A stretch of DNA of 64,000 bases from Eledone cirrhosa (Eukaryota), in contig OZ024750.1 in the NCBI GenBank assembly GCA_964016885.1, positions 54,312,001-54,376,000 of the forward strand, read 5' to 3'. The notes under the pieces were generated by a model, which did no database searches, was not told the DNA's origin, and saw only the letters and a program-made list of their open reading frames with translations. The first letter of the stretch is position 1. Each line of letters starts with the position of its first letter. This document shows, in pieces, positions 30,831 through 37,807 of the stretch. Both the position numbers and the translations under genes were made by a program.

Positions 30831-31588
30831 TTAAGGTCAAAGGAAGTTGGATAAGATAGTATATTAATTAAACAAAAGTATCATTTAATCTATATAAACA
30901 TTAATAAGGATTCAGTATCAAGTTCAGCATTAGTTGAAGTAAAGGTTGTAATTGACAGTGTTAGGTTTATAATGGTTAAACGATTGTAGTTTTTTATGGG
31001 GACAAGTAAAGAAAATGTCTGATTTCTTATTTAAAATGTTAGCTTTGGAATAAATAATTAGTTGAAATTCAAGGAGACGTAATCTACATATTATATTGTT
31101 AGATTTATACTCAGAGGATCAACCTAATATTTCCCAATTCAATGTATAAGGTATGTTCTTAATTTTTAATTCCAAGATAAAACGAGCTTATGATGCCATA
31201 ACTTTTAATTTAGGTTTTCTAAAAGAACGAAGATGAGTTAAATCTTGTTTTGAAACTATTTGATGTAGTTCCTGCCATGAGGTGTTAACCATATATTATC
31301 AGTTAAACAATTACTGCTAAGTGGGCATGGTGTTTTATTTCTACAGTTACAGTTTGGATTAATAATAGAATTAGTGTGATTGTCGATTGCTATTAATAAG
31401 AATATATTTGTTGTTGTGGGTGTTAATATTATTTATAAAGTTACATGTAATTTGTATGTTATTCATAGTACCAGGTATTGGGTTATTAATATTATTATTT
31501 GCAGGGTTATTTTGATTGGATGTATTTAATAGCTATTTGTTATTCATTTTAAAGGATTAACAAATTGTACGGTTGAGAATGAGAGTTT

Positions 31589-33582
31589 TGTAGCAAGAGT
31601 TGGCTCCCTTGTCATGACAATCTCATCACCGCTCTCTAGACAGGAAGTAGCTGGAGTTGCTTCCCTTTGGAAGTGACCAACAGGGAGTCTGTCAATCCCA
31701 AAGGGAAGCAACTCCAGCTACTTCCTGTCTAGAGAGCGGTGATGAGATTGTCATGACAAGGGAGGCAACTCTTGGCGAAGGATTATCAAAAAGGAATCAT
31801 CTCAAGCTAAGGTCGCAGGTGTTACCACTTCGGAAATCAGGAGGCGAGAGAGAGATATCGTGGTGACCTGTTCCTTTTATAGGAGGTGACCGGAAGTGAC
31901 CAACAGGGAGTCTGTCAATCCCAAAGGGAAGCAACTACAACTACTTCCTGTCTAGGGAGCGGTGATGAGATTGTCATGACAAGGGAGGCAACTCTTGCTA
32001 CATTATCCCCCGCCAGATTTTTAAAACATAAAAATCGAAAGAAGCATGCATGGAGTAAGATGGCGAGCATGTAAGAGGCATGAAAATTATGATACAATGT
32101 AATAAAAGTAAGAGAAGAGGTCAAAAGTTCAAATATCTAAAATACAGTTCACATGTGTGTAATCACATGACAGCAGTAAAGAATGTGTTCCAGAGAATGA
32201 ATGCAGGTGGTTTCTGTTCTGTGGTATATCGTGAAATTTCCAACCTCCGAATGGATTTTCTCACAGGAAGAATGCTGCAAAAATAAATTCTCTGGCTTGT
32301 TCTGCTGGTTTTGGTTGTTGATGAAGCTGTGTTGCTGTTGATGTTGTTGTCTCGCGGAGTGAAAAAAAATTTTCAGAAAAAATGAGTTGCGCAAAGTGCT
32401 AGAAATAACAGCCGAAGTTGATGGTCGATGTTGAGAATGCGTTGGCCTGGAAGGGTCAAGAGGCCAGCGACCAAAGAAATAAGCATTCTGAATAAATGCG
32501 CAGTTTTCAACGGCAAATTTACGTGGTAAATTTTTAAACCGGCAAATAGGAGAATATAGCTTAAGGCTGGAGAATCCTTGGCGAGAAACATTATCCCTGG
32601 CGTGTGGCTACCTCAGTGAATCGCGATATCTCAGTGAATCGAGAATCCTACACGTGCCAAAACAAGGTTAAGTTGAAAAAATAATATTTCTAATGCGCGA
32701 GAAAATGGCGCGAAAATGATAGTGCAGCAGGTCGTTGGCAGTCATTTTGAAAAAATGTGTGTGTGAAAGTGACAATGATGAAAAAGAAAGAAAGGCTTCA
32801 CTTAGCATAACAAATATGGCGAGTTCAATTTGTTTTCTTTTTATTTTTGGTGTGAACTTTGAAAAAAACTTGAACGATGAAGAAAACGATGAAAAAAAGG
32901 CAATGGTTGAGGTTCATCGAAAATAAATGTTCCTGTTGTAATACGTGTTCGTTGTAAGAAAAGAGAAACATATATATATATATCGTGAAATGCGACAGTT
33001 AGTTGATGCGTGAGAGAAAAAGTCTGTCTGAACGCGAATTTCACATGTGTGTGGTGTGTTCGTTTCTTGGTTGCGTATTTTCATAGTTTGTCAATAAAAT
33101 TTTGCTGTGTATTCGTAATGTTACTCACACAACACCAGATTCTGCTATTTTTTTCTTTTTTCGGGGTCACCACTTATAACAATGAACGGCTGCGTGTTCG
33201 TATCACGTCGGGGTCACCACTTATAGCGAAATACTGGGTTGTATGAATGTAACAAGGAGACGTGGTTTGTGTGTATAATATTTAATTAACAATTTGTGGA
33301 TATATAGAACAGTAGAGTTGACATGTCAATGAGTAGATGAGAGAATGAAACAAAGTTATTAGTTACCGCTTGGTTGCCAGGGTTACACACGCCTGAGAGA
33401 AGACTCCTGGCGAAAGCCAGGAGGCGCCTGACCGAAAAGGCGAATGAGAGAGAGAGAACTTAAAGTTGTTAGTTTTATAGGGTTCTGACCGGAAGTAACA
33501 GAAAGGGTTCTACTTCCTGTCTAAAGAGCGTTAATCTATTGGGGTTGTGAGTGTCACAACAAGGGAGGCAACTCCTGCTACA
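31589..33582 (-). mobile_element. Non-autonomous tRNA-Trp-primed LTR retroelement with rearranged 3' LTR
   Basis: 4-bp TSD GTTT, which rejoins the host Penelope frame. 5' LTR 33222-33582 (TGTAGC..GCTATA), PBS TGGTGACCCCGA, and PPT ggcgggggataa just before the 3' LTR start at 32002. Confidence 0.82.
33161..33219 (-). promoter_or_regulatory. Doubled tRNA-Trp primer-binding site (32-nt and 12-nt copies)
   Basis: Plus strand ggctgcgtgttcgtatcacgtcggggtcacca (33188-33219) equals the tRNA-Trp 3' part including CCA. A second tcggggtcacca lies at 33161-33172. Confidence 0.88.
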
Positions 33583-34192
33583 GTTTAATCGTATTTTTGT
33601 TAATTAGTTTATGGTATCTATGTCCAAGTGGGGAGTTCCTATCTATTATAGAGAAGAGTATATTAGTAGATATATTTAAACGGTGGGTAAAAATGTGTTT
33701 AATCATCTGCGATTTCTTTTTTCGTTTTTATTTTGGCTTATATTTATATTATTACATTGGTTAATCATGTGTGTGGATATATCTGTGGGTTCAGCTGGTT
33801 TATATTTAGTGTTGATATTCTGGATTATAGGTTTTATGCGGGTGTTTATTTTATTGTTCCTAATATTATTTTTACTGTTATTATTTATAATATAGAATAT
33901 ATACTATTGGTGTTTTGTGTTAGTCTTTGTGGTTAGAAAAAGCTATCTCACTTACCGCTTTTCATAAGCGCCGCTAAATTACACTGCTGGTCTCTCCTCT
34001 TCCACGTGCGTCCAACTGTTTAACACCGGGAGCTGCCAAAACTCGCGTCCACCCCGTTGCTGGTCACCACTAGAGAGGGGCATCTGCTGGCCTTTCCGGT
34101 CGAGCATCCTTCCGACAAAGCACCCTTCCGGTCGAGCACTCCCCCACTTCCGGCCACCGCACGCTACACCATACCCACACGCCCCCCTGATC

Positions 34193-36920
34193 TCAAGGAT
34201 CAATTTCCCCCTCGTCCTTCTGCATATGAAAGTCTGCTGTCCAGGTTGGTGGTTTACGACTTCTTTGCGATCTCCGCAGTGTTGGAACAGCACTTTGGGT
34301 TTCCTCTTCCTCGGAGTCCGTTGACACAGTGATTCTACGGACATCCAGGACATGACGTGGTACTCCGTCCACGGACAAATTGTTCTGGGAATTTACGGCC
34401 GTCACCGTTCCCCTTCCCCATTGAGATGTGCAACGTGCGTCTGGGGGCTTAACCCAGACTTCTTCGCCCACCTGCACGAATGCACTCTCTCTCCCCACTG
34501 GCCATTGTGGTGGCGTGCACGGGTGCCGCCACTCGTATCTGAATACTGCTCTGTGTGGCACGATTCCTCGACCTGACCCACCCGAGGGGACATGTACCAG
34601 AACACTGCCTCCATTGGTGAGATATGGCCCCGCTCCGCCATTGCCTTGATTGTCCGGTGGTGTCGCTCCACAATTCCATTCCCGCTCGGCCTGTGCGCTA
34701 CTCTGAAGAAACGGTCCAGCTTCCATCCATCGAGCATTTCCCTCAGCGCCTCCGAGCGGAACGCTGCGCTGTTGTCCATCAGCAGTTCGTCCACAGGGCC
34801 CCACTCCAAGAAAACCTCTCTCAACGTCCGCATGATTTCCTCGGCCGTTCCAGTCTTCATCTCCCTCCATATCGCCATCCGTCCTGGTCCACAGTCGACC
34901 ATCGAGAGGTACGTTCCCTGTCAGTAGTGCGTTACATCCACCGCCAATCGCTTCCAGTCGCGATCCACCGGGAGGCTTCCCGTTTCGTGTACACCCGGGG
35001 CGGGATCAATGGACTGACATCGGACGCAGCCTCTAACCACCCTTTGAACACCGTGTCTGTTAACGTCCGAGTCGATTTTCCTGTGATGCAATCCTTTCAA
35101 TTCCGACTCGGTCAGCTGACACACGGCAGCTATCTTATCTTCTACCTCCTCCGGCGCTTCCATCCAGGCTTTCTTCACCCTAGTTAAGATGTCCGCCCTA
35201 TTTTTCTCTGAGACCACGAAAACTACGCTCAACCTCAGGTCGAACTCGGTGGCCAACTCTCCTAAAGTTCCCAGGCGGCGCTTTATCAGCATCTCCGCCG
35301 CCCCTCTCGTTCGCACTCTCTTCTCACTGGTGATCACTGATCTCACCCATCCGAGTACAGTAGCCGAGTCGGTGCGTATCTCGATGGTGCGCAGTCCCCA
35401 CCTCAGGGCGAGGTTCACCCCTCTCAACACTGCGTCCAACTCGGCCACATTGATGTGGTTGCAGTCGTCCTTCTTCCTAAGCCAGGCTGCATCCTCGACC
35501 TCAACACCTCCTATCTCCAACGTGACACCCAGCGCTATGCGGCTGGCATCGCACCATACGGTCCCGCTCTGTGATTTGGGAACATACCAGCGTCCCCGCA
35601 CTGGGTCATCGGCCTTCACCCTCCCCATGATCTCCTGCATCATGGCCACCGTCCTCTCTCCCACTCTGTCACTCCTCCCGCTCGTCTCTTGACATAGCTG
35701 CATGCCGTCCGGAGCCACCCAGCAATCGGGTAGTGACCCACTAACTTTCTACACACCGAGAAAAGCTCCCACCTACTCATACTTGGGCCCAGTTCTGGAA
35801 CTTCATTTCCCCTTTGGAATACCAAGACGCCCGTCCTGTCTCGCCGTAGCCTAAGTCTCAGCGCGGCTCCTCCCTCCAACGCTTCTGACGGCTTCGCAGC
35901 CAGTCCATACCCATGTAAATGGCTCGTGACCTCCGTCGCCGACACCACGGACTCGTCCACTAGGATGTCGTCAATATAGGAGTTAGTAGCCCTCTTCATC
36001 TTGTCGGCCTTTCCCAGAATGGTCTTGAGGACCGCCGCCCGAAACCGAGCCTGGTCAGGCAATATGTCCGGCCCTTATACCTGACCAGCTGATACTGCCA
36101 GAGCTTCTCATCTATATGAAATTGCAAGTATGCCGACTTTAGATCTACGATTACTGAACCCCCCGTCATGCGTCTCCACTCACGCAGGGTTTCCCCACAG
36201 ACATCCGTGACCTCGCCACCCGTGTGGCATGAGACGTGCTCGTTCAGCTCCCGAAAGTCCAGCACCGGCCTCACCTTGTTCTTCGTGGGTTGCGCCACCG
36301 CCATTAACGGCAATACTCCGCACTTCACCTCCTCTTTCCAGGGAAGCAGTATGCTCTCCTCAATCCATCTCTCTACCTCTCGCTCGAACTCGCTCCTAAT
36401 GTTTCCCTTCAATGTGTGTTGATAGCATCCCACTTTGGTCTTCAGTGTTGGTGGTTCTCCCTTCCAGTACCACTCAACAACCCATCGCTGCCCATCGAAC
36501 ACGGCCTCTAAGTCTTTGTCCTGCACAGTGAAAGCGGAGTATTTCTCCTCGTGGGTCTTCTAGTTCTCCTGTCGCGCACTCACAGCGCATACCGATGCAG
36601 CGACGCCAAACGACACACCGACGTTGTTCACTGTGATGCCTCCTAGACGGCCAATTGCGTCCATGCCCATAACCACACCGATCCCATCCACCACGCTGTC
36701 CACTACGAAGGCAGAAAGCCTTATTTTCCTTCCCCGTAACGCTATTTCCATCTCGCTGCGACCTCGGCATTCAATTTCCTGCCGTCGACTGCCCTTACGC
36801 TGCTCTTCCCTCTCCACCTCTGCGCCACCCCCGCGGTCACCAGTGTCGTCGTACAGCCCGTGTCCACGAGCGCTCGCTGTGGCTTTCCCCTCACGAAGAC
36901 TTCCACCACGGGCAGCGCCT
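34193..36920 (-). pseudogene. pol: pol (protease, RT, RNase H, integrase), frameshifted
   Basis: ALVDTGC; VRPVLDFRELN, DLKSAY, YIDD; WCDAS..NVAELDA..RTDS; HH..CVRC, AVDV, LMDN, GNGIVER; GEEVWVK..W. Confidence 0.92.
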
Positions 36921-37679
36921 CTACTCGTAAGGGGCAACTACCGGCGCAGTAGTTCCCCTTGGATCGTTTCCTTGGTCGCAGTTAACAGCGATGTCGCCTG
37001 GTCGCTTACACCGGTAGCATATTATTTCCGGCCTTGATTCTCTGCAGTCTCTACCCATGTGCGGGCCCTGGCACCGAAAACAGCGACCTCTAAACGTTCG
37101 CGGGCGACCACGTGCCGTGGTTGCCTCCCTTTCACCATTTCGCTGCCAGCTGTCTTGAGCCTCTGTAGTTGCTATCGCCGCGACACTCTTCTTGGCATCT
37201 TCTGCTATGATCCGGGCTTGTTCCACCAGTGAACGCATTTCCATTTCTTTGTAACCCGGGACTTGCTGCAGTTTCACAGCTATGTCGTCTGGAAATCCAT
37301 TTATGAACGCCAACCGCACCGTGCGTTCGCATTCCACCTGATATCCAGCCAACATGGCCAATCGCCGTATTTCCGCTGCGAAAATGTCCACGCGTTCACC
37401 GTTCCATCTAATTCTTGCCAGCTTAGCAAAAGCGGCTAACAGTCCCTATGCGAACGCTTCCATCATGCGCCTCTCAATATTTTGCGCATCTCTTTGGCTG
37501 TGTTCATCCAACTCAAGGAAGAGTACCAACGCGTCCCCCTCGAGGTACAGTGCCATGAGGCCAGCCACATCTATCTTCTGTAAGCTTGCGACCAGCCGGA
37601 CTTTTGGCAGCCATGCGACAACATCGCCTTCACCGGTAAATGCCTTAATCGCTTCACTTGTTCGTAGTCTCGTCGCCAT
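36921..37679 (-). pseudogene. gag: gag (frameshifted), two zinc knuckles
   Basis: ALYLEGDAL, CFRCQGPHMGRDC and CYRCKRPGDIAVNC. Confidence 0.88.
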
Positions 37680-37807
37680 ATCCTAATTTGTCTTGCGGTA
37701 CGTGATAAAAAAACAACAACAGACTCCTCTCTGTTTTTCCAGTAGCTTTGTTTTCGAGAAAGTTTTTTTTTTTTTTTTTTTTTTTCAATCAGATCTCAGT
37801 TTCCAGT

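What the first reader, a model, noticed from the sequence alone, without database searches (positions are those of the whole stretch)
33161..33222. Doubled tRNA-Trp PBS with a 32-nt tRNA copy carrying an A58-to-T (m1A) misincorporation fossil
Seen: 33188-33219 matches the tRNA-Trp T-arm, acceptor stem and CCA, but the T-loop reads TTCGTAT instead of TTCGAAT (T at 33201). A second 12-nt PBS lies 47 bp away with the same tataag prefix. Known: plus-strand synthesis normally stops at m1A58, giving an 18-nt PBS, and read-through of m1A commonly yields A-to-T errors. Inference: RT read through m1A58 and mis-transferred, writing an extended primer copy and an RNA-modification footprint into the genome.
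Basis: partly seen in the sequence, partly recalled or inferred. Interest (0 to 1): 0.7.

Follow-up and report, generated by a model that had tools for sequence, protein, structure and literature searches.

The report
Retrotransposon junctions record tRNA modifications
A jumping-gene family carries a doubled tRNA-primer site with an over-long copy of the mature tRNA, and such copies across this genome carry mismatches concentrated at positions where tRNAs are usually methylated, so they likely preserve a fossil record of RNA modification in DNA.

Summary
Observation confirmed. 33188-33219 is a CCA-tailed copy of tRNA-Trp positions 45-76 with T at 58; a 12-nt PBS lies 47 bp away. It is not a one-off: it is the inherited 5' junction of a ~2-kb non-coding, CsRn1-type LTR element (81 exact-junction copies; 20 of 30 unbiased copies doubled, all T58; 10 single-PBS). 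Of 410 perfect 18-nt Trp PBSs, 160 run on into tRNA sequence. I reduced 168 fetched copies to 50 independent junction lineages. Position 58 is non-A in 12 of 50 (transversions 10.8/50 against 3.0/560 at free positions; unbiased subset 4.3/34 against 6/1020, p=2e-4). Position 37 is changed in 3 of 8 tails that pass it, and tails end mainly near positions 37 and 26. A second family shows the same doubling with T58, and metagenome contigs show similar tails and doublings. Likely mechanism: plus-strand strong-stop DNA reads through m1A58, then switches template onto the LTR end. Caveats: this family's T58 is one founder event; two damaged host genes have T58; most tails keep A58; no modification was measured. 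Nine paper searches found no description of such integrated tails.

The parts
33583..33586 (-). left 4-bp target-site duplication (AAAC)
33222..33582 (-). 5' LTR (361 bp, TGTAGC...GCTATA) of a non-coding LTR element
   Evidence: 42 scored genome matches; 3' LTRs of relatives end at the same GCTATA
33202..33219 (-). first PBS, 18 nt, complementary to tRNA-Trp 76-59 including CCA; the likely priming site
   Evidence: 3' LTRs of relatives stop before it
33201..33201 (+). T at tRNA position 58 (host genes mostly A)
   Evidence: 44 of 46 gene-type matches have A
33188..33200 (-). primer over-extension, tRNA positions 57-45 (G57, G49, C47 isodecoder)
33173..33187 (-). second LTR-end-like stretch (13 nt) plus AG spacer
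   Evidence: matches the LTR end of single-PBS relatives
33161..33172 (-). second PBS, 12 nt; the only PBS in single-PBS relatives
32015..33160 (-). interior with no match to CsRn1-type gag/pol baits
   Evidence: no tblastn hit; no retroelement domain in the 152-aa frame
32003..32014 (-). polypurine tract
31589..32002 (-). rearranged right end: LTR of a related subtype, internally repeated and closed by an inverted copy of its own start, ending in GCTACA
31585..31588 (-). right 4-bp target-site duplication (AAAC)

Best explanation
The stretch is the inherited 5' junction of a non-coding, tRNA-Trp-primed LTR retrotransposon family, and it likely arose once in a founder when plus-strand strong-stop DNA copied 32 nt of the mature primer tRNA, likely misreading m1A58, and then likely switched template onto the LTR end of the minus strand. 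Copying on from there would give LTR - long PBS - LTR end - old short PBS - interior. Shown: the architecture, its inheritance, single-PBS relatives, CCA, 3' LTRs ending before the long PBS, and enrichment of mismatches at 58 and 37 in independent tails of other families. Inferred: that the bases are m1A58 and m1G37; that transfer follows the Ty1/Ty3 route, in which the tRNA-copying strand is normally a dead end and the minus strand offers R-U5 as acceptor; that the single-PBS form is ancestral; that CsRn1-type autonomous elements supply the enzymes.
For: CCA in tails, none in genes. 160 of 410 perfect PBSs continue with N[CT]GAAC. 50 junction lineages in 20 upstream (LTR-end) clusters. Position 58: transversions 10.8/50 vs 3.0/560 (p=1e-10; the search left 58 free); unbiased set 4.33/34 vs 6/1020 (p=1.7e-4; all mismatches p=0.021). 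After dropping 4 lineages that a T58 gene could explain: 8/46 vs 19.7/506, p=0.001. All three wrong bases occur at 58. Position 37 changed in 3 of 8 lineages that read well past it, none at 36-27 (p=0.0025). Ends: 16 of 34 length-unbiased lineages at 37-42 nt, 3 at 48-49, none at 43-47. LTR-end duplication of at least 8 nt after the tail in 4 of 50 vs 1.6% of 2266 control pairings, each ending exactly at the LTR end. An independent doubled-PBS family (4 copies, gag downstream) also has T58. Other tails jump into pol, gag or the inverted LTR. Mutated first PBSs are inherited in many family copies, as expected if the PBS is not recopied from tRNA (PMC5371799 section 2.2). HIV RT stops at 58, 55, 54 and 37 (PMC13191261 passages). 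In metagenome contigs 5 of 18 distinct tails are non-A at 58, two end at position 27, and doubled PBSs recur.
Against: The family's T58 is one event. 38 of 50 lineages keep A58 as main state, and family B has A58 in 33 of 33. Two host gene copies have T58; L044 matches the window's 32 nt except at 49. Only 46 of at least 71 gene-like copies were read at 58 by pattern. The trees need 3-4 changes between single and doubled forms and have no root, so gain and loss cannot be ordered. The 32-nt end point (position 45) is not a site I can tie to a blocking modification. Tail lengths come from my own x-drop rule, which treats 58, 57, 47 and 37 as neutral and can overshoot. Lineage grouping was partly by hand.
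Confidence: 0.72

Rival explanations
1. Read-through and template switch happened, but T58 was copied faithfully from a U58 tRNA variant, which lacks the m1A stop and so is read through preferentially.
For: 2 of 46 gene-type matches have T58; L044 differs from the window copy only at 49 within the 32 nt; L118 has the A57/T58 haplotype seen in 4-5 lineages.
Against: Both genes carry further damage (L044 at 32, 37, 49; L118 at 24). No gene with G57/T58/G49 among the 46 or the 22 read in full. C58 and G58 tails have no gene counterpart. Enrichment survives removal of the A57/T58 lineages.
Confidence: 0.12
2. T58 is an ordinary point mutation in the founder, kept because a methylated A58 cannot pair with the template anyway.
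For: One event cannot be assigned a cause; the methyl group blocks Watson-Crick pairing (PMC13191261 passage), so the site would be free of selection in inherited extensions.
Against: One-off LTR-plus-tail insertions that were never replicated further also show changes at 58 (L084, L092, L013, L113, L102). Background transversions are about 0.5% per site against about 22% at 58.
Confidence: 0.08
3. The long match is a selected extended primer-pairing element, like the lentiviral primer over-extension sequence, and not a captured tRNA copy.
For: Several coding families keep a fixed 29-40-nt extension before gag (B, E, ev4, ev6). The family propagated with a mutated first PBS, which extra pairing could offset.
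Against: Most lineages are single insertions with different end points, many followed by host DNA, pol or an inverted LTR. Single-PBS relatives lack the whole 47-bp unit. Selection may explain retention, not origin.
Confidence: 0.05
4. A piece of a tRNA gene or tRNA-derived SINE was inserted at DNA level next to the LTR.
For: tRNA-derived sequence occurs in non-autonomous LTR elements (Helenus; PMC10886601).
Against: CCA is not gene-encoded here. Every tail starts at the tRNA 3' end, 1-2 nt after an LTR end, antisense, without box A.
Confidence: 0.03

Closest known systems
CsRn1 clade of Ty3/Gypsy (Metaviridae) LTR retrotransposons
   Same: tRNA-Trp PBS and 4-bp TSD; coding families with the same PBS in this genome have the CHCC gag and GPY integrase motifs.
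   Different: The window's family is non-coding, so it is at most a passenger of the clade; extended or doubled PBSs were not in the passages read.
Plus-strand over-extension products of HIV-1 and the lentiviral/spumaviral primer over-extension sequence
   Same: RT passes position 58 and stops at later modified bases; genome sequence downstream of the PBS matches the tRNA.
   Different: Products running past 54 are described as unable to transfer or integrate. Here tails of 24-52 nt are integrated and some are inherited.
Dead-end plus-strand strong-stop DNA of Ty1/Ty3 (PPT recycling; primer tRNA not inherited)
   Same: Explains inherited PBS mutations and supplies an R-U5 acceptor for the switch.
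   Different: In yeast the strand copies 12 nt and is discarded; here it likely copies far more and is sometimes captured.
Helenus/TRIM non-autonomous LTR elements
   Same: Non-coding, two LTRs, PBS, PPT, 4-bp TSD, tRNA-derived sequence.
   Different: Helenus has promoter-type tRNA sequence inside the LTR and is under about 1.3 kb; here the tRNA piece is antisense, at the PBS, in a ~2-kb element.
RT misincorporation signatures used in mim-tRNAseq
   Same: Same positions (58, 37, 26); the m1A signature depends on the neighbouring base, and here A57 tails are changed at 58 in 9 of 17 against 3 of 33 for G57.
   Different: Made in vivo by retrotransposon RT and fixed in the germ line.

Membership tests
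CsRn1 clade | PBS complementary to tRNA-Trp | tested here: met
CsRn1 clade | 4-bp TSD | tested here: met
   AAAC in the window; matching 4-mers in 12 of 17 relatives with a 3' LTR, in the other 5 the script did not place both ends
CsRn1 clade | CHCC gag motif and GPY integrase motif | tested here: not met
   the window element has no coding match; both motifs are present in coding family B, locus L260
CsRn1 clade | RT phylogeny with named members | not tested
   no named reference RT was fetched
TRIM | non-coding with LTRs, PBS, PPT | tested here: met
TRIM | shorter than 1000 bp (PMC10886601) | tested here: not met
   1994 bp in the window, about 2.0-2.2 kb in relatives
Helenus | tRNA-derived promoter (boxes A and B) inside both LTRs | tested here: not met
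   the tRNA piece covers 45-76 only, is antisense and lies outside typical 3' LTRs
tRNA gene | full cloverleaf without encoded CCA | tested here: not met
m1A58 RT footprint | mismatch excess at position 58 across independent events | tested here: met
m1A58 RT footprint | host genes have A58 | tested here: inconclusive
   44 of 46 have A, 2 damaged copies have T; at least 25 further gene-like copies not read by the pattern
m1A58 RT footprint | the tRNA is methylated at 58 in this organism | not testable with these tools
   no RNA holder was listed

The most novel reading that the evidence does not exclude
CsRn1-type retrotransposons routinely integrate over-extended plus-strand DNA, so animal genome assemblies hold a readable germ-line record of primer-tRNA modification (errors at m1A58 and m1G37, stops near G37 and G26), with RT-family- or isodecoder-specific error rates; capture of this normally dead-end strand is a recurrent way to lay a fresh PBS in front of a decayed one.
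Probability: 0.55. Interest if true: 0.78.

Novelty: new variant of a known kind. Interest (0 to 1): 0.63.

Why it matters
Whether m1A58 is the in-vivo plus-strand stop, and what becomes of products that pass it, has been studied mostly in HIV-1 and yeast, where long products are taken to be dead ends. Here dozens of natural integrated products can be counted from DNA alone. That makes stop sites, error spectra and the transfer route testable for a retrotransposon clade and a host with no tRNA-modification data, and shows how a PBS that is not recopied from its primer could be renewed.

Tried and rejected
ARAGORN on the window: no gene. IMG/VR scan: 0 matches. Sequencing runs: no RNA holder listed. 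Laying four runs showed no difference row at 33201 among the 40 rows printed, but 36 rows were hidden, so I draw nothing from it. Earlier findings of the scan: none in 3 look-ups. The abbreviation search for doubled PBS returned mostly unrelated papers. Dropped before counting: L243 and L289 (doubtful short tails); three tails wrongly joined through TA repeats were split; changes at 37 in tails ending within 2 nt of it (L006, L071, L075, L078) were not counted as they may be host DNA. In one search, four bacterial tRNA genes and one full-length match were set aside and two identical pairs merged (25 to 18). The TSD test on LTR-plus-tail insertions is only suggestive: 12 of 23 with a called LTR start against 21% in controls, several in TA repeats, 7 not called. 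None of the 50 lineage representatives has integrase within the upstream stretch held, so I could not show tails on 3' LTRs of full-length elements; direct integration of short DNA and later LTR-LTR recombination remain open. The idea that the perfect new PBS drove the family's spread is weakened by the many doubled copies with a mutated first PBS. L359 and L374 fell out of the trees through the pattern used (43 of 45 rows).

Full report
Observation. The sequence is as described: 33188-33219 equals tRNA-Trp positions 45-76 including CCA, with T at 33201 (position 58), and 33161-33172 repeats the last 12 nt; on the minus strand the two PBSs start 47 bp apart, each after TATAAG. tRNA numbering is mine, from the host gene in L051. 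The window lies in a 3.0-Gb animal assembly.

Anatomy. Read on the minus strand: TSD AAAC, a 361-bp LTR (33582-33222), AG, an 18-nt PBS, 14 further tRNA-matching bases, a 13-nt LTR-end-like stretch plus AG, a 12-nt PBS, a 1.15-kb interior without gag/pol match, a PPT, a rearranged right end (32002-31589) closed by an inverted copy of its own start, and AAAC. The element is 1994 bp.

It is a family trait. The pattern PBS-N-CGAAC has 143 matches (control 0): 85 with T58, 53 with A58, 5 with C58. 81 of the 85 have this family's junction, 13 of them in one array on C14. A search anchored on the short PBS and interior, blind to the long PBS, gave 206 matches; of the first 30, 20 are doubled, all with T58, and 10 have the short PBS directly after the LTR. 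Among all fetched family tails a few differ at 58 (C in three, A in one). In 17 of 19 longer stretches a 3' LTR was found (88-100% identical to the 5' LTR, six or more at 99.7-100%), and it ends before the long PBS, so priming is at the first PBS. In copies with a further 46-47-bp duplication the unit can enter the 3' LTR (L017/L018). Many doubled copies share a mutated first PBS, so the PBS is inherited and not recopied from the primer. Trees of the LTR and of the interior put 7 single-PBS copies in one diverse clade and 3 among doubled copies; 3-4 changes are needed and there is no root. One gain with later losses fits, but is not shown.

Host genes. 71 places match the gene's 5' half. Of 64 matches to the 3' half, 18 are LTR-linked tails and 46 are gene-type (flanks seen for part; the rest assigned by array position or lack of CCA); 44 have A58 and 2 have T58. 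None of 22 gene-like copies read in full encodes CCA. The two T58 copies are damaged: L044 also differs at 32, 37 and 49, L118 at 24 and has A57.

Independent events. 410 perfect 18-nt PBSs exist; 160 continue with N[CT]GAAC. 168 fetched copies with tails of 24-52 nt fall into 50 junction lineages after hand curation. 12 are non-A at 58, one more is mixed, and all three wrong bases occur. Transversions at 58 are 10.8/50 against 3.0/560 at positions the searches left free. In the set from the 38-nt, three-mismatch search, which favours no position, they are 4.33/34 against 6/1020 (p=1.7e-4; all mismatches p=0.021). Removing the four A57/T58 lineages leaves 8/46 against 19.7/506 (p=0.001). Position 37 is changed in 3 of 8 tails of 48 nt or more, with no change at 36-27. 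Of 34 lineages found without length bias, 16 end at 37-42 nt, 8 at 31-33, 3 at 48-49 and none at 43-47; stops before 37 and 26 would give 39 and 50 nt. That eukaryotic tRNA-Trp bears m1G37 and m2,2G26 is recalled, not tested. Changes at 58 go with A57 (9 of 17 against 3 of 33, p=0.001) and cluster in a few LTR families.

What follows the tails. A duplicate of the LTR end in 4 of 50 (control 1.6%), with short overlaps at the joint; gag, pol or the inverted LTR in others; host DNA with a candidate TSD in some. A second, coding family has PBS + T58 + 3 nt + LTR end + degenerate PBS in 4 copies. Chimeras join this family's ends to other Trp-primed families (L273, L274, L275, L310). Coding families B and E have a fixed 32- and 39-40-nt extension; B shows the CHCC and GPY motifs of the CsRn1 clade.

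Elsewhere. The metagenome scan gave 25 loci; after setting aside four bacterial tRNA genes and one full-length match and merging two identical pairs, 5 of 18 are non-A at 58, two end at 50 nt, one is changed at 37, and two distinct loci show a doubled PBS; 5 of the 25 have CsRn1-like gag or pol downstream. The yardstick was this genome's gene. IMG/VR gave none.

Mechanism. In Ty1/Ty3 the first plus-strand strong-stop DNA copies the primer and is a dead end, while a later one transfers to R-U5 at the minus-strand end (PMC5371799, section 2.2 read). If the dead-end strand passes m1A58 and anneals by its 3' end near the U5 end, extension gives exactly the doubled layout; annealing elsewhere gives the deletions and inversions seen. 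This step is inferred. HIV-1 RT stops at 58, 55, 54 and 37, and products beyond 54 are said not to integrate (PMC13191261 and PMC8599865, passages). For the window's own T, the contrast of about 22% against 0.5% favours a modification error over mutation; a U58 template remains the main rival.

Literature. Nine searches found no report of integrated, extended primer-tRNA tails with modification footprints or of PBS doubling by this route. Also seen: PMC3630058, PMC2582038, PMC8062790 and PMC7472051 as passages (the last looked for modification errors in mouse ERV PBS mutations and found no match), and PMC10886601 parts 1-3 of 6. The PBS alignment in the supplement of PMC2582038 is an image I did not see and may show extensions. 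The library lacks most subscription and older virology papers; primer remnants at retroviral circle junctions are known to me from recall only.

Verdict. Real, inherited and part of a genome-wide pattern. The element is a known kind; the integrated modification record appears to be a new variant. Interest 0.63.

Noticed in passing
window 33928-38089 (- strand): Separate, decayed Ty3/Gypsy element with 86%-identical LTRs, a 5-bp TSD (AAGAC), gag zinc knuckle, RNase H and integrase remnants broken by stops and frameshifts; no tRNA-Trp PBS.
   Followed up: partly
window 41029-48198 (+): 2389-codon stop-free frame of Gly/Ser/Tyr-rich repeats (GGSGGGSSSSGSSSY-like); the opposite strand is open too (Thr-rich), so it may be a structural-protein exon or a satellite.
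   Followed up: no
L044 (G000:C4:277429797-277429860): A tRNA-Trp gene copy in a gene cluster, without CCA, whose four changes include both 37 and 58, the two sites changed in RT-made tails; possibly converted by cDNA, possibly chance.
   Followed up: partly
window 31589-32002: The right end is an LTR of another subtype folded back on itself to end in CA, inside one TSD; similar inverted LTR starts follow the PBS in L218, L237, L251 and L273.
   Followed up: partly
L242, L288; family of L230: Single-base insertion exactly between positions 59 and 58 in two family-B copies, and a 15-copy family whose PBS is followed directly by GAA, as if 58-57 were skipped.
   Followed up: no
G000:C4:353.39-353.49 Mb and C14:21.37-21.46 Mb: A tandem array of tRNA-Trp genes (mostly A57), and an array holding 13 copies of the window's family.
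   Followed up: no
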